A stretch of DNA of 64,000 nt from Minisyncoccota bacterium (GTDB lineage Bacteria; Patescibacteriota; Minisyncoccia; Phycocordibacterales; UBA9973): positions 90,338 to 154,337 of the forward strand of contig JANOFO010000007.1 in the NCBI GenBank assembly GCA_031413715.1, in the 5' to 3' direction. The position numbers and the translations under genes were made by a program. Shown here in pieces: positions 18,623 to 26,394 of the stretch. The notes below the pieces were generated by a model, which saw only the letters and a list, made by a program, of their open reading frames with translations, was not told where the DNA came from and did not search any database. The first letter of the stretch is position 1, and each line of letters opens with the position of its first letter.

Positions 18623-18697
18623 GGCCCTATCGTCTAACGGTTAGGACATCGGCTTTTCAAGCCGGTAATCCGGGTTCGATTCCCGGTAGGGTCACCA
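18623..18697 (+). tRNA. tRNA-Glu (anticodon TTC), CCA encoded
   Basis: GGCCCTATCGTCTAACGGTTAGGACATCGGCTTTTCAAGCCGGTAATCCGGGTTCGATTCCCGGTAGGGTCACCA with anticodon loop TTTTCAA. Confidence 0.85.
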
Positions 18698-20309
18698 AAC
18701 GATTCACTTCATCCATAAATTCAGGTTCTATGTTGTAAACACAACATAATTCAGGAGTTTTAATAGTTGGATAGTGATAATAGAGATTGGAAGGAAAAAG
18801 TAGGGTTCTTAAAACTCTAAGGTCTTTCACATAGATGTCTTCCCAAATTTCAGGAAGATGCTTTAGAAATTCAACCCCTGTATCAACAACCCTATCTATT
18901 TCAAGTTCAGGAGAGGACAACTCACTCAAATCTTTTTGTAATTGCAATATTTCTATTTTGCACTTTTCATTTGCTGGTAAAAAGTCTTCATCTGATATCT
19001 TTGTTTCAAGTCTTAGATTTAGCAACTTATCTTTCTTGTCTCTTATTTCTGCAATCCTCATGTTAATTTTCTTTTCCGAGGTAGTAATAGAATTCAATTC
19101 ATTTTTATGAGCAAGTTTAATTGCCTCTTTGAGAACATCAAAGTGCTTATCATCAGGGGTCATCTTTGTAAGAAATTCAGTAAACTCTTCTTCCATATCT
19201 TTCTTTGGTATAGCAGTCCTCTTAGGACAATCACCACAAAAACAGCCATAATACTGGTAGTACTTGGTTTTACCTTTTGTCTTTCCTCCAGAGATACTCT
19301 TGCCACAACCACTGCATTTTATACCCCGCAGGGGATAGTCAGGACTATCCCTATTACGAGCTAACTTTCTTCCAGCCACACCTCTTTTATTACCACTACC
19401 ATTAGCTTCATTAAAGAGTTCAACAGAAATTATTGGTTTATGGCTACCTTCAACATCAACACCAAATTTTTGAACCACAATTCTGCCACAGTAAATTGGG
19501 TTTTTAAGGATTTTAGCGACTAGTTGCTTGCTTATTTTCATACCATGCCTACTTTTTTGTCCGCACTTATTTGCCAATCCTGCCAATTCCTTACAACTAT
19601 ATTTTCCCGTGATATGCTTCTCAAAAATCATTTTTATCACTGGTGCTCTTTCTGAGTGAGGAATAATAATTTTGTTGCCTAATTTATCTTTTGTATTTAC
19701 ATATCCCCAAGGAGCACCATTAGGCCATAAACCTTTGAGTGCTCTTGCTTTCATTCCTTCACCAGTTCTTTGAGACCTGACATCATTATCAAACTGAGCA
19801 AAGGCAGCCAGCATTGTTTCTTGCAATTTACCGCTAGGACTATCATCAAAAGCCTCTGTTACAGAAACTAAAGAGATATTTAATTTTTTAAGAAAGCTTC
19901 TAAATGCAAGATGTTCACCAGCGTTTCTGAAAAATCTATCAACTTTGTATATGACAACTCTGTCAATTTGTTTTTTGTTCTTATCACAGAACCTCAGCAT
20001 TTCCTGAAATCTTGTTCTGTTTTCCGTCTTCGCACTCTCTCCCTCTTCTCTAAATACTTTTAAGACAGTATGTTCAGTTCTTTTAGAGAATTCTCTGGAG
20101 AACTTTTCTTGATTGTCTAAGCTAAAATTCTCAACTTGTTCTTTTGATGACACACGCACATAGATGACATCATTTTTAGGTTTTTCTATTTTAGGTTTTA
20201 TTTTCATAAATTTGTTATTAGTTAATTTAAACTCTTTTCCCAAAAATCTCAAAATGTTTGTTCTGGAATTAAAGAGCTTATTGTTCTTGTAATTTGGTTT
20301 GCACGGCAA
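18657..20309 (-). CDS. large serine recombinase (integrase)
   Basis: VIYVRVSSKEQ catalytic-Ser motif, a recombinase domain, a zinc ribbon CSGCGK...YYGCFCGDCPK and a C-terminal coiled coil. The likely true start is the ATG at 20207 (MKIKPK...). The 3' end overlaps tRNA-Glu. Confidence 0.9.
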   Translation of the reverse strand: MPCKPNYKNNKLFNSRTNILRFLGKEFKLTNNKFMKIKPKIEKPKNDVIYVRVSSKEQVENFSLDNQEKFSREFSKRTEHTVLKVFREEGESAKTENRTRFQEMLRFCDKNKKQIDRVVIYKVDRFFRNAGEHLAFRSFLKKLNISLVSVTEAFDDSPSGKLQETMLAAFAQFDNDVRSQRTGEGMKARALKGLWPNGAPWGYVNTKDKLGNKIIIPHSERAPVIKMIFEKHITGKYSCKELAGLANKCGQKSRHGMKISKQLVAKILKNPIYCGRIVVQKFGVDVEGSHKPIISVELFNEANGSGNKRGVAGRKLARNRDSPDYPLRGIKCSGCGKSISGGKTKGKTKYYQYYGCFCGDCPKRTAIPKKDMEEEFTEFLTKMTPDDKHFDVLKEAIKLAHKNELNSITTSEKKINMRIAEIRDKKDKLLNLRLETKISDEDFLPANEKCKIEILQLQKDLSELSSPELEIDRVVDTGVEFLKHLPEIWEDIYVKDLRVLRTLLFPSNLYYHYPTIKTPELCCVYNIEPEFMDEVNRLVTLPGIEPGLPA

Positions 20310-20319
20310 ATAGCCACAT

Positions 20320-20526
20320 TTATGGGGAATTACCTGCTGACGCTAGTAAATCCTCCGCATTCTGTGGTTTTGGTGGTTTAAAGTGCTGTTTAATCTGTAG
20401 CCTGACGAGGAATAAAGCCAGTTCATATAGATTTTTGGCAGTTTTCTCTAAATCCTGTTCTGGAACTTTTGAATTGATTCTTTTCAGGTGTTCTATTATT
20501 TTTTGGACTTCTTCTGTGTTAAACAT
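20320..20526 (-). CDS. small hypothetical protein immediately upstream of the recombinase (candidate accessory or directionality factor)
   Basis: 68-aa ORF on the same strand, 11 bp from the recombinase track start; no motif recognised. Confidence 0.3.
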   Translation of the reverse strand: MFNTEEVQKIIEHLKRINSKVPEQDLEKTAKNLYELALFLVRLQIKQHFKPPKPQNAEDLLASAGNSP

Positions 20527-20598
20527 AAAAAATCCCCTGTTGGGGACTTCTTGAAGTCTATACTTTGAGTTTCTTTTAAGGTCCTAACTCATCCTAAT

Positions 20599-21327
20599 TC
20601 AGTAGTTTCTAAACACTGCTGGTTCTTGTTGGCGAAACAAGGATTGATTTATACCTTTTATTTTTAACTTCCTATTCAAATTAGCTACCAAATTTGAAAT
20701 TGATTTTTTCTCCCTCCCTCCCATTTTAGTATATTCATCTTTTTCACCTTTAATTGTTTCCCAGATATCACCATAGCTAACAGGTATTTTAGGTTTTGGT
20801 TTAAACATGATTTCACAGAAATAAGAATAATTTGTATTTGGATAAATCTTTAATTTTCTTTTACCAATAATAATTTCATTGTTTATATAATATGACTTTA
20901 GGTTAGATTTATAAATGCCTATATTTAATAATGTTTCAGTTTTTTTTAAAAATAATTTCCAGTTATATATTTCCAAAATCAATGAATCTTCATCATCTTC
21001 CAAGTAAACTCCTGAAACAGGGTTGATATCTTCTTTGGTCTGGGATACAATTTCATCCCCAATTTTAGTAATTGTTCCATTTAGAATATTTATCCATATT
21101 GACTCAGGATTAACTTCCCCTATATTCTGGTTTAGATATTGAATAAAATGCCTTGCCTCAGCTTTATTAATAGAAGATTCTTTTAGAGTATCAAAAGGTA
21201 TTTTCACTACCAAAGGCTCTTGTGTTGGAAATAGTACAGACTGTTCTTGAATCATTTTAAGCAACAGAGCTATTTGCTCTTCTTGGTGTAGGGTCAAGCT
21301 ATTTTCTTTCATACTTAAATAATACAT
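20599..21327 (-). CDS. hypothetical protein (element cargo)
   Basis: 242-aa ORF in AT-rich cargo; no motif recognised. Confidence 0.4.
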   Translation of the reverse strand: MYYLSMKENSLTLHQEEQIALLLKMIQEQSVLFPTQEPLVVKIPFDTLKESSINKAEARHFIQYLNQNIGEVNPESIWINILNGTITKIGDEIVSQTKEDINPVSGVYLEDDEDSLILEIYNWKLFLKKTETLLNIGIYKSNLKSYYINNEIIIGKRKLKIYPNTNYSYFCEIMFKPKPKIPVSYGDIWETIKGEKDEYTKMGGREKKSISNLVANLNRKLKIKGINQSLFRQQEPAVFRNY

Positions 21328-21589
21328 ACAAAAAGCAATAAAACAAAGCTTCTTTGATTTTTAGGTAAATAGAGGTAAAATGAAAGCATAATTTAATATA
21401 TAAAGTAGCCTAAACCTTTAGAAATAGAGGCATGGTGAAAAAACCAGTCAAGCATAAAGAACCTATCATATAGGGTTGCCTTGACTGGTCATATCTGGAA
21501 ACGGATATGGGGAGCGAAAGCTCTCACCTATGTGGTAGGCTTTTTGCGTCTTACCATGGGCTTATTATTAAAACGCAGAAAGAATCTTT

Positions 21590-22201
21590 ATGAAAAAATA
21601 TATTACAATTTTATTTTTAGCAGTATTAATAACCCCTTCAATTACTTTTGCTTCTTGGTGGAATCCTTTTTCTTGGTCAAAAGATTCCAAACAAGCTATA
21701 GATGTTATTGAGCCAACATTAATTCAAGCAACTGATAAATCCACCTCAGTAATTGAAACAAAACCTAAAGAAATTAAAGTTATTGAAAAAATAGTAGAGA
21801 AGCCAGTTATTCAGACTATTTCAGTTCAAGACCCTGCTTTACAGAAACGGATTAAACAACTGGAGTTAGAAAACCAAGAACTTAAATTACAGATAGAAAA
21901 ACTAAAGGCTTTACAACAACAAGTGCAAACACAAAAAGAAGAGATTGAATCATTAAAAAGTGTACCAGTCTTTTCAAAAGATAAAGAATGTGAGGAAGCA
22001 AAAGAATTCATTAATTCTACTGGTGAAAAAGTAACTGATTTAAGAGAACGGCAAGCAAAGGAAATTGCTGATTATATGAAGAACGGAATAAAATTGCAAA
22101 AAGACATAGACGCAATAAAAAATAAGTACCGTACAGAAGGAAGCCAAATTGACAAAAAAATCAAATCAGCTAAAGATAAAATTCAACTTTATTGTGATTA
22201 G
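21590..22201 (+). CDS. secreted coiled-coil protein
   Basis: Signal peptide MKKYITILFLAVLITPSITFASW, then a charged, Gln/Lys/Glu-rich coiled-coil-like region. Confidence 0.5.
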   Translation: MKKYITILFLAVLITPSITFASWWNPFSWSKDSKQAIDVIEPTLIQATDKSTSVIETKPKEIKVIEKIVEKPVIQTISVQDPALQKRIKQLELENQELKLQIEKLKALQQQVQTQKEEIESLKSVPVFSKDKECEEAKEFINSTGEKVTDLRERQAKEIADYMKNGIKLQKDIDAIKNKYRTEGSQIDKKIKSAKDKIQLYCD

Positions 22202-22235
22202 AAACTGTTGATTCTATCTAATTCTATCTACTTTT

Positions 22236-22552
22236 AAAAGACCCCTGAAAAGTGTTAAATAAACCAAATTAACCTAATTTAAAAAGACCTCAAAAAGTGT
22301 GTATTAAGCAAATTAAGCGAAATCTTTTTTGCTACTAAAACTTGGTATATATACCTAAATTAACCTAATTCTAGGATATTCCTCTAAACTGCTTATTTTA
22401 CAAATTTACCAAAATCATTTCTGGTCTCTAAAAGTGGTATTTATAGCAAATATAGCAAATCTCTTTTTGGGTCTGAAAAGTGTTAATTATATCAGTCTAA
22501 TCAGAATTTCTCTGGTGTCCAAAACTGCGAATTATATCAAAAGTATCAAACC
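22236..22552. repeat. about six degenerate direct repeats, 45 to 50 bp period, iteron-like
   Basis: Units share a core GGTCTnnAAAAGTGnTAnnTATAnC, for example gacccctgaaaagtgttaaataaacc, ggtctctaaaagtggtatttatagc, ggtctgaaaagtgttaattatatc and ggtgtccaaaactgcgaattatatc. They lie directly upstream of the CDS starting at 22590. Confidence 0.5.
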
Positions 22553-22589
22553 TTAAATTGGACTTTTAAATAGGCTTTATTGGTGTATA

Positions 22590-24107
22590 ATGCAAATTAT
22601 GTCTTCATACATTAAATCAATAAAAATTACTGAATTTGAAGGAGCTTTAGACCAGACTCTGGAATTTGAAGCGGGCTTAAATATCTTGAGCGGAGAAAAT
22701 GGAACTGGTAAAACAACGGTATTAAAGAAAATTAAAGAATTTGCAGGAGGTAATAATAGCAATTTAACTTTACTTTCTGACATTTCAGATATAACACTAC
22801 CAAACCAACTCAGTATTTACGCTCTTAGCCCAAAGAGAAATTCAGAAAAGAAGACTATAAATAATACTTTTTCACATCTCCGTTCTATAAGCAAAACGAT
22901 GGATACGCAGCTTGAGGAATTAAGAAATAGAGCAATTAACGATAATACTTTTGAAGCATATCCATCATTTGGAGAGTTATTTATTTTATATTTTGATGAA
23001 AAATGCAAAGACGGTGGAGAGCAAATTGGAAAGATGAATGAGGTAACTACTGAATTTAATAATCTTATACAAAAGGTTTTTCCTGAGTACTCCTTTGTTT
23101 CAAGTTGGGATTCCGTGTCTGGAAGACCAGATATAAACCTTAAAATCAGCAACCGCTCTCCCCTTAGTTTAGATAAATTAAGTTGTGGACAACAGGAAGT
23201 TCTGTCTTTGATATTTAACATTTATACTTCAAAGGGAAAATATAATATCTATTTAATTGATGAGCCTGAAATACATTTAAACTGGAACTTAGAAAAAGGA
23301 TTATTCCAATTTTTGGATTGGTTCTGTGTAAATCACAATAAGCAAATTATTACAGTTACTCACTCACGTACTATCTTTGAAGAACCATTTTATGAAAAGG
23401 CGAAGTTTTTGGTTTGGGAAGATGTAGTTATAAAATATCAAAGTGATATTTCTGATGCTCAGCGTGAAGCTATTGTAGGAGAATTAGCAGCAACCATAAA
23501 TGTTGTTGCTCCTACTTCTAAGACTTTCTTTGTTGAAGATAAAATGCATGAATTTGTTATTGATACTATTGCTCAAAAGCTAGGTAAAGTAATCTCAACA
23601 GTTAAGTGTGGAAACTCTGCAAATGTAAAAAGTTTCTATGGACTATCAAAAGATAAAAGTAGTGCTTGGAAAGAACATGGCTATTATGTTGTTGATGGAG
23701 ACAATGAGGGTAATCCTTTTCCAGGAGAACCAAGGTTTATCCACTTAAATAAATATTCCATTGATTCATATATATTTAACTTAGAGTTGCTTTCTGAGGT
23801 TCTAAATAAGACAGTTGAAGTTATACAAACAGAGATATTGTCTGTAATGCAGACAAAGAAATTAGCTATTTTTTCAAAAGGTAAAAATGCAAAATTTGGA
23901 CATGCATTGATAGACAAAATGACAAGCGATTACATAACAGAAGCACATTTGGCACTTGTAGATTGCACAGAAATTTTAGAAGGCTTTGCTCAATTACAAG
24001 GTAAATCATCGCAAGACTTGTTTGTAGAATATATTGAAAAGGCAAATCAAAAAGGAACATTGAATAGTATTTTTGACTCAGAACTTATTGACGTAATAAA
24101 TGCTTAA
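22590..24107 (+). CDS. OLD-family / PARIS-like ABC ATPase fused to a TOPRIM-like (DUF4435-like) C-terminal domain
   Basis: Walker A LSGENGTGKTT, ABC signature-like LSCGQQ, Walker B/D-loop IYLIDEPEIHLN and H-loop ITVTHS. The C-terminal FFVEDKMHEF...YVVDGDNEG fits a TOPRIM Glu followed by a DxD motif. Confidence 0.6.
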   Translation: MQIMSSYIKSIKITEFEGALDQTLEFEAGLNILSGENGTGKTTVLKKIKEFAGGNNSNLTLLSDISDITLPNQLSIYALSPKRNSEKKTINNTFSHLRSISKTMDTQLEELRNRAINDNTFEAYPSFGELFILYFDEKCKDGGEQIGKMNEVTTEFNNLIQKVFPEYSFVSSWDSVSGRPDINLKISNRSPLSLDKLSCGQQEVLSLIFNIYTSKGKYNIYLIDEPEIHLNWNLEKGLFQFLDWFCVNHNKQIITVTHSRTIFEEPFYEKAKFLVWEDVVIKYQSDISDAQREAIVGELAATINVVAPTSKTFFVEDKMHEFVIDTIAQKLGKVISTVKCGNSANVKSFYGLSKDKSSAWKEHGYYVVDGDNEGNPFPGEPRFIHLNKYSIDSYIFNLELLSEVLNKTVEVIQTEILSVMQTKKLAIFSKGKNAKFGHALIDKMTSDYITEAHLALVDCTEILEGFAQLQGKSSQDLFVEYIEKANQKGTLNSIFDSELIDVINA

Positions 24108-24158
24108 GGATGAATTCTCTAGATGTTTCTTTATGTAAAATTATGGTAAAATACAAAG

Positions 24159-24872
24159 ATGGAAACAGCAAGCCCTATTATAGTGGTTAGTACAGCAATT
24201 CTTACAAGCTTTTTTACATATTTTTTTACTTTCAATCAATACATAAAACAACGGCAAAGAGAAGAAGTAAGAAAAACATATATTGAAGATGGTATAGGTA
24301 GAGTAATGCAAGTCACAGAATCAGTTTCTCAGGCTTGTTATTTTAACTTTACAAAAGTAATTAGTGCACTAGATATTCTAGAAAGAAATTTTGGAGGGAA
24401 AGAGATTGAAAAAGAAATTTTAAATAATATTTTTCTGGAAATGCAAGATGTAAAAGTTGCCCCAGATTATGGAAATCTAAAATTGGCAATTTTTGATAAC
24501 CAAACCCTTATTATATGGGTAATTCAATCTTGGGCAGAATATCAAAAACTAAACGAATATCTAAGGCATTATATATTTCAAGAATTTAAAGCATACTTAA
24601 ATGATTCAACTTTATCCGAAGATAAGAGAAAAGAATTTTTGATTAAATTGAGAGAACAAGTTCGCAATCATTGGAACAGAGTAATTAACAACAATGAAAT
24701 ATTAAGGGGTCAGTTATTGTTACTACAAGTTGAAGCTGATAAAGCAAATATTTCAAATATTCAGGAGATAGATAACCTAGCAAAGAAAGAAGGGGTTTTA
24801 AAAGTTTTAAAAGCCATAGAAGATGGATATAAAAAAATTAAAGATAATCCAGTAGATATTACAACACTTTAA
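24159..24872 (+). CDS. hypothetical membrane-anchored protein downstream of the ATPase
   Basis: 237-aa ORF with an N-terminal TM helix, 52 bp after the ATPase stop on the same strand. Confidence 0.4.
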   Translation: METASPIIVVSTAILTSFFTYFFTFNQYIKQRQREEVRKTYIEDGIGRVMQVTESVSQACYFNFTKVISALDILERNFGGKEIEKEILNNIFLEMQDVKVAPDYGNLKLAIFDNQTLIIWVIQSWAEYQKLNEYLRHYIFQEFKAYLNDSTLSEDKRKEFLIKLREQVRNHWNRVINNNEILRGQLLLLQVEADKANISNIQEIDNLAKKEGVLKVLKAIEDGYKKIKDNPVDITTL

Positions 24873-25036
24873 AATTCAACTTCTAATTCCTAACATTTAA
24901 ATACCATTAAGGGAAGAGACTGGAAGTAGTTCTTGTTGGATAACCCTGTAATTTAAAGGTTTTTCAAAGTTAGAGATTATCTTTTCCAGCTCCTTAAAGA
25001 AGTTTACATAGGGTTTTGAGTCTGGTATCATTAAGG

Positions 25037-25085
25037 TCACACATACTTAAAAATCTGCACTGCTGCAGGTTTTTAAGTATGTGTG
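25037..25085. terminator. perfect 17-bp-stem hairpin between convergent genes
   Basis: tcacacatacttaaaaa ... tttttaagtatgtgtga around a 15-nt loop containing ctgcag palindromes. Confidence 0.4.
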
Positions 25086-25254
25086 AAAACGCAGGTATAA
25101 TTTTTCAGAAGAAAAATTGCCGAGTTGGGGTCGCGAGTACTTACGTAGAATTTGAGCAAAGCGAAAATTATACTTAGTAACTTGTGACCACATAGATTAG
25201 TACCTGTAAGGTTCGATAAGCGTACTCGCGGTCCCCATAGCTCACAAAGAAATT

Positions 25255-26394
25255 TTATTTACTATTTAACCCTCCAAAAGATGGGAAGTTGTGTACGTCG
25301 TAATCTTTTCTTATGTTTCGAAGATGTAATTTAATCGCCTTGTTATAGGTAAAACTTTTATCAAGAAGCAATTTTGCACCTTTAACGATTTCTGGAATCT
25401 TTTTTTCAATAAGATCATCTGCAACACAAGCCACTCTTTTACCCTCTCTCAAGAGCCTGTCACATTCTTTGGTTCTATTATCAAGAGAGGGGTATGAATT
25501 ACACTTAGGAAGAACCGAGTAAAATGGAACATCATTTAGGAAATATAATGGCCAACGACAGGTAGCAATTTCTAACCATGGCGTATCAACAAGAAAAGCA
25601 AGAAATGCAAAACCAGTATGTGGGGAAAGAAATATATCGCATTTTTCTATTAACGCTATCTGATTCCATAGACCGATATTGTATGCAGACTCCGCATTTT
25701 TAAGATGCTTGACCAAATAGTCTATATCATTCAAAGTAAAATCTTTTGTGAAAGTTCTATGATGGTCACTTTTGGTGATACCCGTAAAGTAAATTTTAAG
25801 ATTTGGTATTGCCTTTTCTAATGCCAAACAGATTTTAAGCCACATTTCAACAGACGGACTTTGCCTTAATCCTTTAGCGCCTCCAAGCATGATTACAACT
25901 GTAGGGCCACGATGCTTAAACTTCTTTGTGAATGTTTTTGCTTTTGTTGGAATAGGAAGGGTAATTTTTTGATTTGATACAGCCGGTAGAATACTACCTT
26001 CATTGTCTCCGTTTTGCTTAACATAGCCCTTTGCAATCTTGGCAACAAATATTTTATGTAACACTTCTTGAGTTTTTACTAACTCTGGTCTGTCGCTTAC
26101 TTTTACCAGTCGACCCGCTCGATTATCAGTACTTATATAATCCCAATTTTTGGGAATCCTTTGAAGACATTTTGCCTTTTCTCCGTCCTTGAAAACCTCA
26201 TCCGTTGAAATGGAATATGTTTTCTTAATCCATGGACATGCGTCTGCGAGTTCTGTCGGCGTATTAGCATTGAGCAACAAATATACATCAAGATTTTTGT
26301 TAGCGAGCGAATAACCCTTGGCAAGTTTTAATGCTTCAACTGCGTGCCCGACGGGTGGGTAGTATACCCAGTTAAGGAGTAGTTTTTTCTTCAT
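25255..26394 (-). CDS. glycosyltransferase family 9 (heptosyltransferase-like)
   Basis: VVIMLGGAKGLRQSPSVEMWLKICLAL and CDIFLSPHTGFAFLAFLVDTPWLEI resemble GT9 C-terminal motifs (KrWP...; DSGpmHlAaAlg.P). Confidence 0.55.
   Translation of the reverse strand: MKKKLLLNWVYYPPVGHAVEALKLAKGYSLANKNLDVYLLLNANTPTELADACPWIKKTYSISTDEVFKDGEKAKCLQRIPKNWDYISTDNRAGRLVKVSDRPELVKTQEVLHKIFVAKIAKGYVKQNGDNEGSILPAVSNQKITLPIPTKAKTFTKKFKHRGPTVVIMLGGAKGLRQSPSVEMWLKICLALEKAIPNLKIYFTGITKSDHHRTFTKDFTLNDIDYLVKHLKNAESAYNIGLWNQIALIEKCDIFLSPHTGFAFLAFLVDTPWLEIATCRWPLYFLNDVPFYSVLPKCNSYPSLDNRTKECDRLLREGKRVACVADDLIEKKIPEIVKGAKLLLDKSFTYNKAIKLHLRNIRKDYDVHNFPSFGGLNSK

What the first reader, a model, noticed from the sequence alone, without database searches (positions are those of the whole stretch)
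22590..24872. OLD/PARIS-like ABC ATPase with a TOPRIM-like C-terminal domain, plus a downstream membrane protein, on the tRNA-Glu element
The 505-aa protein has a complete ABC ATPase head (Walker A GTGKTT, signature LSCGQQ, Walker B/D-loop LIDEPEIHLN, H-loop VTHS). Its C-terminal roughly 170 aa contain an acidic VED...E segment and a YVVDGDNEG DxD motif about 55 aa later, the spacing expected for a TOPRIM/DUF4435 nuclease domain. This is the architecture of class 1 OLD nucleases and of fused PARIS (AriA-AriB) anti-phage proteins. A 237-aa TM-anchored protein of unknown function follows 52 bp downstream on the same strand and may be an effector partner. The gene sits in AT-rich integrase-associated cargo, consistent with a mobile defence gene.
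Basis: partly seen in the sequence, partly recalled or inferred. Interest (0 to 1): 0.7.

Follow-up and report, generated by a model that had tools for sequence, protein, structure and literature searches.

The report
Compact single-gene PARIS-type defence nuclease
This gene encodes a one-protein version of the known PARIS anti-phage system (an ATP-driven sensor fused to an AriB-like nuclease) on a mobile island; the membrane protein gene after it is an unrelated orphan, so this is a sound but fairly ordinary defence gene.

The parts
22599..24107 (+). Gene for the single-chain ABC ATPase-Toprim (AriAB-like) protein, 502 aa from the probable start. The mechanical ORF begins at 22590 (505 aa). 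Residue numbers in this report count from 22590.
   Evidence: start; ATPase; Toprim
22590..23444 (+). ABC ATPase head (residues 1-285): Walker A 22692-22718 (K41), signature LSCGQQ 23178-23195, Walker B/D-loop 23253-23282 (D224, E225), H-loop 23355-23366 (H258). The helical insertion is short: 184 aa from the Walker A Lys to the Walker B Glu, against 354 in AriA.
   Evidence: AriA residue numbers from PMC11464382
23445..24104 (+). AriB-like Toprim (DUF4435-type) domain plus C-terminal helical bundle (residues 286-505). Acidic cluster: E316/D317 (23535-23540) after strand 1, D369-G-D371 (23694-23702) after strand 3, D392 (23763-23765).
22586..22591 (+). TATAAT -10-like box, 7 nt upstream of the probable start codon and conserved with the L002 homologue's upstream region. 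It suggests a leaderless or near-leaderless mRNA (inference).
22230..22585 (+). Array of about 7-8 degenerate units of 45-46 bp (AAAAGTG core plus a short internal 9-bp doublet) filling the upstream intergenic region. The units resemble the promoter-proximal sequence. Role unknown, possibly regulatory.
24159..24872 (+). 237-aa orphan ORF with an N-terminal transmembrane segment, 51 nt downstream on the same strand. Probably co-transcribed or transcribed from its own -10-like box. Not a conserved partner of the ATPase.
25037..25086 (.). Perfect 23-bp-stem hairpin between the convergent 237-aa ORF and the 379-aa ORF (25255..26394 -). Probable bidirectional terminator that ends the transcription unit.
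18657..20309 (-). Large serine recombinase of the island. The ORF's 3' end overlaps tRNA-Glu (18623-18697 +).

Best explanation
The gene encodes a compact, single-polypeptide member of the PARIS (AriA-AriB, OLD class 4) family of anti-phage proteins.

Shown:
- An N-terminal ABC ATPase head that is most similar to AriA.
- A C-terminal Toprim nuclease domain with an AriB/DUF4435 fold. Its acidic metal-binding cluster is invariant across a family of roughly 500-aa proteins found in many bacterial and archaeal phyla.
- The gene travels alone as a one-gene cassette. It is found on serine-recombinase islands (as here), inside type I restriction-modification operons, or next to type IIG/IIL enzymes.

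Inferred by analogy with the characterised E. coli PARIS system:
- The ATPase head senses a phage-encoded trigger, plausibly an anti-restriction protein.
- ATP-dependent rearrangement then licenses the Toprim domain, probably through dimerisation, to cleave a host nucleic acid. tRNA is the most likely substrate. Cleavage would arrest translation and abort the infection.
- Because the two modules are covalently linked and the long AriA helical scaffold is missing, activation cannot proceed by releasing a free AriB. It must be a conformational or oligomeric switch within the fused protein.

The downstream 237-aa membrane protein is lineage-specific cargo, not part of the system.
For: ATPase head:
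- Pfam AAA_15 1e-16 and AAA_21 1.7e-9.
- The best PADLOC model is the fused AriAB (1e-29, query 151-411), followed by AriA models.
- The best solved relative is AriA, at 2e-7 with the single sequence and 4e-15 with the family profile.
- All catalytic ABC motifs are invariant.

C-terminal domain:
- 14 of 42 family members match Pfam DUF4435 from its first profile positions, at the TFFVED strand.
- The AF2 domain model has pLDDT 89.3 and pTM 0.84, with beta-alpha-beta-alpha-beta-beta topology followed by a helical bundle.
- Foldseek finds AriB (8ux9_A) as the only significant PDB hit (E 5.8e-4, TM 0.64) (chain identity).
- Motif mapping to AriB: E26 = E316, D88/E90 = D369/D371, E122 = D392 (acidic in 41 of 42 members). 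The AriB residues are from PMC11464382.

One-gene cassette and defence context:
- The downstream gene differs in every close relative.
- Family members sit in hsdS-X-hsdR position in L007, L008 and L014. Others sit next to MmeI-like, Eco57I-like or ResIII enzymes, or next to large serine recombinases.
- A PHROG family matches nearly the full length of the protein.

Literature: single-gene AriAB fusions are described (PMC9122126, PMC11464382).
Against: - The window's own C-terminal domain does not reach any Pfam model, even at E 10. The C-terminal sequence profile finds no solved relative.
- The profile comparison to the single AriB sequence is weak (E 0.006, probability 6%). The AriB link for this copy therefore rests on a predicted fold plus family-level DUF4435 hits.
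- The position of AriB D30 is His or Gln here.
- The ATPase insertion is about 170 aa shorter than AriA's, so the hexameric scaffold and trigger pores of the solved complex are probably absent.
- The match covers only about 40% of the 694-position PADLOC AriAB model.
- No restriction-modification genes were found in this window.
- Nothing here tests phage defence, the trigger or the substrate. A DNA target, as in OLD nucleases, is not excluded.
Confidence: 0.75

Rival explanations
1. It is a class 1 OLD nuclease: a single-gene ABC ATPase-Toprim protein that degrades or nicks DNA, as P2 Old and Thermus OLD do, rather than a PARIS-type tRNA-directed system.
For: - It has a single-gene architecture.
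- The full-length Foldseek top hit is Thermus OLD 6p74 (E 3.9e-9).
- The 2023 review says it is unresolved whether fused AriAB proteins act like class 1 OLD (PMC10568477).
Against: - AriB is the only significant Foldseek hit for the nuclease domain.
- The head matches AriA at 4e-15 against 3e-3 for OLD.
- Pfam OLD-like_TOPRIM is hit weakly by 1 of 42 members, against 14 of 42 for DUF4435.
- GajA and ATPase-Toprim PADLOC models score far below AriAB.
Confidence: 0.14
2. It is a two-gene system in which the ATPase-Toprim protein acts as the sensor and the downstream 237-aa membrane-anchored protein acts as the effector.
For: - The two genes are on the same strand with a 51-nt spacer, and no terminator was detected between them.
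- The protein has an N-terminal transmembrane segment.
- Membrane effectors are common in abortive-infection systems (established knowledge).
Against: - The 237-aa protein has no homologue other than itself and no family hit.
- The 84%- and 88%-identical ATPase genes are followed by unrelated genes.
- No downstream gene recurs across 15 family loci.
- The Toprim catalytic residues are invariant, so the protein carries its own effector.
Confidence: 0.06
3. It is not a defence gene but a housekeeping or element-maintenance ATPase-nuclease, for example in DNA repair of the RecF/Rad50 type or in replication or partition of the island.
For: - There are weak SMC_N, RecF and Rad50 matches to the P-loop region.
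- Some family loci have housekeeping neighbours (L006, L010, L013).
Against: - Those matches cover only the generic ABC N-terminus.
- The distribution is patchy across phyla, and 40%-identical copies occur in both archaea and bacteria.
- The gene is repeatedly embedded in restriction-modification operons and recombinase islands.
- The best matches are all defence proteins.
Confidence: 0.05

Closest known systems
Merged single-gene AriAB (PARIS; OLD family class 4), described by Rousset et al. 2022 and Burman et al. 2024 and represented by PADLOC model PDLC02981
   Same: - One polypeptide with an AAA_15/AAA_21 ABC ATPase followed by a DUF4435-type Toprim domain.
- It is the best PADLOC hit (1e-29).
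- Relatives of about 695 aa with the same architecture are recovered at about 25% identity.
   Different: - The protein is about 190 aa shorter than the 694-position model, and only about 40% of the model is matched.
- The helical insertion in the ATPase is much shorter.
- The Toprim opening motif is VED..H rather than the VEG..D of AriB.
- Whether this ~500-aa clade corresponds to one of the two published 'merged' clades could not be determined here.
E. coli B185 PARIS, the two-gene AriA6:AriB3 complex (PDB 8ux9, 8v45-8v49)
   Same: - AriA is the closest solved sequence for the head.
- AriB is the closest solved fold for the tail.
- Four of the five AriB metal-binding acidic positions are conserved.
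   Different: - The two modules are fused, so AriB release cannot occur.
- The Walker A to Walker B distance is 184 aa against 354 aa.
- The C-terminal domain is 220 aa against 306 aa.
- AriB D30 corresponds to His320.
- Trigger and substrate are unknown here, whereas AriB cleaves tRNA-Lys(UUU), tRNA-Thr and tRNA-Asn after sensing Ocr, Ptr1 or Ptr2 (PMC11464382, PMC12409363).
Class 1 OLD nucleases (P2 Old; Thermus scotoductus OLD, PDB 6p74)
   Different: - The nuclease domain is closer to AriB.
- There is no OLD-like_TOPRIM Pfam match.
- The head is far closer to AriA.
- OLD enzymes are DNA exo/endonucleases (PMC10568477).
PrrC anticodon nuclease of the prr locus (hsdM-hsdS-prrC-hsdR). The comparison rests on my own knowledge of Kaufmann and colleagues' work; PrrC is cited as a tRNA-Lys nuclease in PMC12409363.
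   Same: - It resembles PrrC in logic and gene position, not in homology. PrrC has an NTPase head fused to an RNA nuclease tail.
- Family members L007, L008 and L014 occupy the same slot between hsdS and hsdR.
- PARIS and PrrC both respond to phage anti-restriction factors and both cut tRNA-Lys.
   Different: - The nuclease domain is Toprim, not the PrrC ACNase domain.
- Pfam AAA_13 (the PrrC-type head) is hit by only 1 of 42 members, at 0.008.
- The window copy has no restriction-modification neighbour.

Membership tests
Single-gene PARIS (merged AriAB, OLD class 4) | ABC ATPase of the AAA_15/AAA_21 type with intact Walker A, signature, Walker B and H-loop | tested here: met
   AAA_15 scores 62 bits (cut-off 32.1) and AAA_21 scores 38.7 bits (cut-off 27). 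K41, S198, G200, D224, E225 and H258 are invariant in 42 of 42 members.
Single-gene PARIS (merged AriAB, OLD class 4) | ATPase closer to AriA than to other defence ABC ATPases | tested here: met
   PADLOC scores: AriAB 1e-29, AriA 4e-21, GajA 2e-16, PtuA 3e-11. Family profile against the PDB: AriA 4e-15, Rad50 1e-8, PtuA about 1e-7, OLD 3e-3.
Single-gene PARIS (merged AriAB, OLD class 4) | DUF4435 (PF14491) domain detectable by sequence on the same polypeptide | tested here: inconclusive
   The window protein has no hit, even at E 10. 14 of 42 family members do hit (best 1.6e-7, mostly near the 27-bit cut-off), aligned from the start of the profile at the TFFVED strand.
Single-gene PARIS (merged AriAB, OLD class 4) | C-terminal domain has the AriB fold (Toprim core plus helical domain) | tested here: met
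Single-gene PARIS (merged AriAB, OLD class 4) | Toprim metal-binding acidic residues equivalent to AriB E26, D30, D88, E90 and E122 | tested here: inconclusive
   Four of five are conserved: E316, D369, D371 and D392 (acidic in 41 of 42). The D30 position is His or Gln. An invariant D317 next to E316 may substitute for it, which is an inference. The underlying profile alignment is weak (E 0.006).
Single-gene PARIS (merged AriAB, OLD class 4) | Anti-phage activity triggered by a phage protein; tRNA cleavage by the Toprim domain | not testable with these tools
   This needs phage challenge, trigger co-expression and tRNA sequencing.
E. coli B185-type two-gene PARIS complex (AriA6:AriB3) | Separate ariA and ariB genes; long helical insertion in AriA (IS1, coiled coil, IS2) forming the scaffold and trigger pores | tested here: not met
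   There is one ORF. The Walker A Lys to Walker B Glu distance is 184 aa against 354 aa in AriA (AriA K39 and E393). The model shows only four short helices in the insertion.
Class 1 OLD nuclease | Single gene with an N-terminal ABC ATPase and a C-terminal Toprim domain | tested here: met
Class 1 OLD nuclease | OLD-type Toprim domain (Pfam PF20469) that is closest to OLD structures | tested here: not met
Gabija GajA (class 2 OLD) | Adjacent UvrD-like helicase GajB; helical insert in the Toprim domain | tested here: not met
PrrC-type anticodon nuclease | PrrC NTPase head (AAA_13) with a C-terminal ACNase domain, encoded between hsdS and hsdR | tested here: not met
   AAA_13 is hit by 1 of 42 members at 0.0084, and the tail is Toprim. 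The gene position is matched only in family loci L007, L008 and L014, not in the window.

The most novel reading that the evidence does not exclude
The ~500-aa family is a distinct, minimal form of PARIS. It has dispensed with the AriA hexameric scaffold and with AriB release, so a single chain senses the trigger and switches on its own Toprim nuclease. In many genomes it is wired into restriction-modification operons in the same slot as prrC, acting as a built-in guard that fires when a phage disables the neighbouring restriction enzyme. The window copy would be a mobile, free-standing version of this guard in a candidate-phyla-radiation (Nomurabacteria-like) genome.
Probability: 0.3. Interest if true: 0.55.

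Novelty: new member of a known kind. Interest (0 to 1): 0.3.

Why it matters
- It adds a confidently assigned PARIS-type defence gene to a small-genome lineage; the nearest relatives are in Candidatus Nomurabacteria MAGs.
- It shows that a compact ~500-aa ATPase-Toprim clade is widespread in bacteria and archaea. Its own DUF4435 domain often falls below Pfam thresholds, so annotation pipelines may miss it.
- A 2023 review states that it is unresolved whether fused AriAB proteins behave like PARIS or like class 1 OLD. This minimal clade has a short ATPase insertion and recurs inside type I restriction-modification operons. That makes it a convenient test case for how a covalently linked sensor and nuclease are kept off and then switched on.
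- For the window itself, the result is a straightforward annotation rather than a surprise.

Tried and rejected
- Direct Pfam scan of the window's C-terminal 225 aa at E 10: no hit.
- hmmsearch of the C-terminal family profile (A2) against PDB sequences: only chance GFP matches on the DGD..G..PF string.
- Profile of the stand-alone zinc-ribbon-Toprim relatives (A4) against the PDB: only rubredoxin-like matches to the ribbon.
- phmmer of two stand-alone putative AriB ORFs (L040, L031) against the PDB, as a bridge to AriB: no hits.
- Local jackhmmer from AriB over all ORFs of the fetched loci: only the Pseudoalteromonas AriB was found.
- hhalign of A2 against the single AriB sequence: the motifs align correctly but the statistics are weak.
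- Search for an att-like repeat of tRNA-Glu (12 nt or longer) elsewhere in the window: none, so the right end of the island is undefined.
- Homologues or family assignment for the 237-aa ORF: none. Comparison with the gene downstream of the 84% homologue: unrelated.
- tblastn of restriction-modification neighbours of family loci against the window: no hits.
- Conservation of the upstream 46-bp repeat array in L001 and L002: absent. Only the last ~20 nt, the promoter region, are shared with L002.
- Rejected: reading the full-length Foldseek ranking (OLD first) as evidence for class 1 OLD. That ranking is dominated by the shared ABC head. The domain-only searches separate AriB from OLD.
Full report
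**Observation**

Every quoted motif is present at the stated spacing: Walker A 35-43, LSCGQQ 197-202, LIDEPEIHLN 222-231, VTHS 256-259, FFVEDK 313-318 and VVDGDNEG 367-374. Neither ORF is a chance open frame. Shuffles of 20001-25000 never gave a stop-free run longer than 147 codons.

The region from 20 to 25 kb has 29-32% GC, against about 40% for the window. A large serine recombinase (Resolvase, Recombinase and Zn-ribbon domains) is encoded at 18657..20309 on the minus strand. Its ORF overlaps the 3' end of tRNA-Glu at 18623-18697.

There is one correction to the gene model. The first ATG lies inside a TATAAT box, and the sequence TTTATTGGTGTATAATGC is shared with the locus of the 88%-identical homologue. 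Gene callers and all homologues begin at the second ATG, 22599, which gives 502 aa.

**The ATPase head**

Pfam assigns AAA_15 (1e-16) and AAA_21 (1.7e-9). In PADLOC the best model is the fused AriAB (1e-29, covering residues 151-411), followed by two AriA models. GajA, PtuA and generic ATPase-Toprim models score well below these.

Among solved structures, AriA of PARIS is the closest sequence. It scores 2e-7 with the single protein and 4e-15 with a 42-member family profile. In the same search Rad50 scores 1e-8, PtuA about 1e-7 and Thermus OLD 3e-3. K41, S198, G200, D224, E225 and H258 are invariant across the family.

The head is compact. There are 184 residues between the Walker A lysine and the Walker B glutamate, against 354 in AriA (AriA residue numbers from PMC11464382). 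The model shows only four short helices in the insertion.

**The C-terminal domain**

The window's own C-terminus hits no Pfam model. A sequence profile of the domain finds no solved relative. The family nevertheless gives the answer:
- 14 of 42 members match Pfam DUF4435, the AriB domain. The match runs from the first profile positions at the TFFVED strand.
- Only one member touches OLD-like_TOPRIM, and it does so below threshold.

A domain-only AlphaFold model is confident (pLDDT 89.3, pTM 0.84). It shows a beta-alpha-beta-alpha-beta-beta core followed by a helical bundle. The invariant E316/D317 lie directly after strand 1 and D369-G-D371 directly after strand 3, which is the canonical Toprim arrangement.

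The fold searches agree:
- Foldseek against the PDB finds one significant hit, chain 8ux9_A (E 5.8e-4, TM 0.64). One search identifies this chain as AriB.

To map catalytic residues I recovered the solved AriB sequence through a close homologue on a Pseudoalteromonas plasmid. This confirmed the published numbering: E26 and D30 in VEGRHD, D88 and E90 in CDRE, and E122 in LENY.

A profile-to-sequence comparison is statistically weak (E 0.006). It does align D369/D371 with D88/E90, and the family's IENY motif (SIDSY in the window, D392) with LENY/E122. That column is acidic in 41 of 42 members.

So four of the five AriB metal-binding positions are conserved. The D30 position is His or Gln, and the family instead has an invariant Asp (D317) next to the Toprim glutamate.

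**Family and context**

The word-indexed search returned 267 relatives. The closest are 88% and 84% identical, the latter from a Candidatus Nomurabacteria MAG. The rest form a broad set of ~490-aa proteins at about 40% identity, from Patescibacteria, Bipolaricaulota, Planctomycetota, Aminicenantes, Alphaproteobacteria and others. Archaeal copies appear in the genome scan.

An exhaustive search of 1.84 billion cluster representatives gave 1,908 hits, 95 of them at E ≤ 1e-30. It also found two related groups:
- Proteins of about 695 aa with the same architecture, at about 25% identity. This is the length of the PADLOC AriAB model.
- Stand-alone zinc-ribbon-Toprim proteins of about 260-296 aa.

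Across 15 loci that encode family members, no downstream gene recurs:
- Three members sit between hsdS and hsdR of type I restriction-modification operons (L007, L008, L014).
- One is followed by a ResIII helicase (L018), one by an MmeI-like enzyme (L012), and one is preceded by an Eco57I-like enzyme (L011).
- One lies beside a LexA-methyltransferase fusion (L015), and one is preceded by a UvrD helicase (L009).
- Four lie next to large serine recombinases (the window, L001, L016, L017).
- Three have housekeeping neighbours (L006, L010, L013).

The gene therefore behaves as a mobile one-gene defence cassette. The window itself has no recognisable restriction-modification genes.

**The 237-aa ORF**

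It is a real gene with an N-terminal transmembrane segment. Its only match among 5.8 billion proteins is itself, and it matches nothing in Pfam, NCBIfam, PADLOC or PHROGs.

The 84%-identical ATPase is followed by an unrelated, acidic, non-membrane protein with a C-terminal DNA-binding-like region. The 88%-identical ATPase is followed by a small HNH-like gene.

No terminator was detected in the 51-nt spacer, so co-transcription is possible. There is no evidence of a functional partnership.

**Mechanism**

The ATPase-Toprim architecture, its affinity to AriA and AriB, and the conserved catalytic residues are shown. The mechanism is inferred from the characterised E. coli system (PMC11464382, PMC12409363). 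In that system AriA senses phage proteins such as the anti-restriction protein Ocr. ATP-dependent change frees AriB, which dimerises and nicks tRNA-Lys(UUU), tRNA-Thr and tRNA-Asn, stopping translation.

Here the two modules are one chain and the long AriA scaffold is missing. Release is impossible, so activation must be an intramolecular or oligomeric switch. The recurrent position inside restriction-modification operons fits a role as a guard against anti-restriction factors. From my own knowledge, that slot is also the one occupied by prrC in the prr locus. This remains an inference. A DNA substrate, as in OLD nucleases, is not excluded.

**Comparison and novelty**

Single-gene AriAB fusions are already described. 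Rousset et al. 2022 reported them, Burman et al. 2024 defined two 'merged' clades, and PADLOC has a model for them. A 2023 review notes that it is unclear whether such fusions act like PARIS or like class 1 OLD.

On the evidence here the protein is a new, compact member of the merged PARIS kind. It is not a class 1 OLD, and it is not a two-gene system with the membrane protein. Interest is modest. The useful points are that family members often escape DUF4435 detection, and that this minimal clade offers a simple model for how a fused sensor-nuclease is controlled.

Noticed in passing
window 21407-21525 (+): Full-length match to the Rfam LOOT RNA family (RF03000): 89.8 bits against a gathering score of 46.4, E 1.4e-16. 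It lies on the low-GC island between the 242-aa and 203-aa ORFs. It is absent from the islands of the two closest ATPase homologues (L001, L002). The paper library holds almost nothing on this RNA.
   Followed up: partly
window 22230-22585: The whole intergenic region upstream of the ATPase gene is an array of about 7-8 degenerate 45-46-bp units. Each has an AAAAGTG-like core followed by a unit-specific 9-bp doublet (for example TATAGCAAA twice at 22442-22460). The units resemble the promoter-proximal sequence. The array is not present upstream of the L001 or L002 homologues. It could be tandem promoter copies or regulator or iteron-like binding sites.
   Followed up: partly
window 22586-22601 and 24140-24161: Both the ATPase gene and the 237-aa ORF have a -10-like box (TATAAT; TGGTAAAAT) ending 6-7 nt before the start codon, and neither has a Shine-Dalgarno sequence. 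This suggests leaderless mRNAs.
   Followed up: no
window 25122-25243 (+): A GC-rich structured element in an AT-rich spacer. A 15-bp closing stem (GGGGTCGCGAGTAC ... GTACTCGCGGTCCCC) encloses two inner hairpins. MFE is -42.9 kcal/mol, z = -4.36 against shuffles, and there is no Rfam match. It is not found in any fetched locus. It could be a small RNA or a recombination site at the island's right end.
   Followed up: partly
window 25037-25086: A perfect 23-bp-stem hairpin between convergent genes, probably a bidirectional terminator. It produces spurious sub-threshold miRNA hits in Rfam.
   Followed up: partly
window 18623-18697 / 18657-20309: The C-terminal 13 codons of the large serine recombinase ORF are read antisense through the 3' part of tRNA-Glu. 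This is consistent with integration into the tRNA gene. No tRNA-derived repeat of 12 nt or longer marks the other end of the island.
   Followed up: partly
L001 1-9600 (Candidatus Nomurabacteria MAG JAPLXV010000011.1): The 84%-identical ATPase also lies on a serine-recombinase island. It is preceded by three co-directional genes (563 aa with HATPase_c_3, 290 aa unknown, 508 aa with RNA_pol_A_CTD/HhH-like repeats). It is followed by a 243-aa protein with a predicted DNA-binding C-terminus and an IS110 transposase. The three upstream genes may be another defence system.
   Followed up: no
proteins P0215-P0217, P0223, P0228-P0230, P0239, P0240, P0243, P0250 (alignment A4); locus L086 5001-5891: Stand-alone proteins of 260-296 aa combine an N-terminal four-cysteine, rubredoxin-like zinc ribbon with the same Toprim domain (TFxVED, DGDN, YCIENY motifs). 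The one locus examined has no adjacent ATPase; its neighbours are DinB-family and unknown genes.
   Followed up: partly
L009 428-4045: In one family locus a UvrD-type helicase gene lies directly upstream of the ATPase-Toprim gene. This is a Gabija-like pairing with a PARIS-like nuclease protein.
   Followed up: no
L015 4130-5620 (-): A single 496-aa protein fuses a LexA DNA-binding domain, an S24 peptidase and an N6/N4 DNA methyltransferase. It is encoded divergently next to a family member.
   Followed up: no
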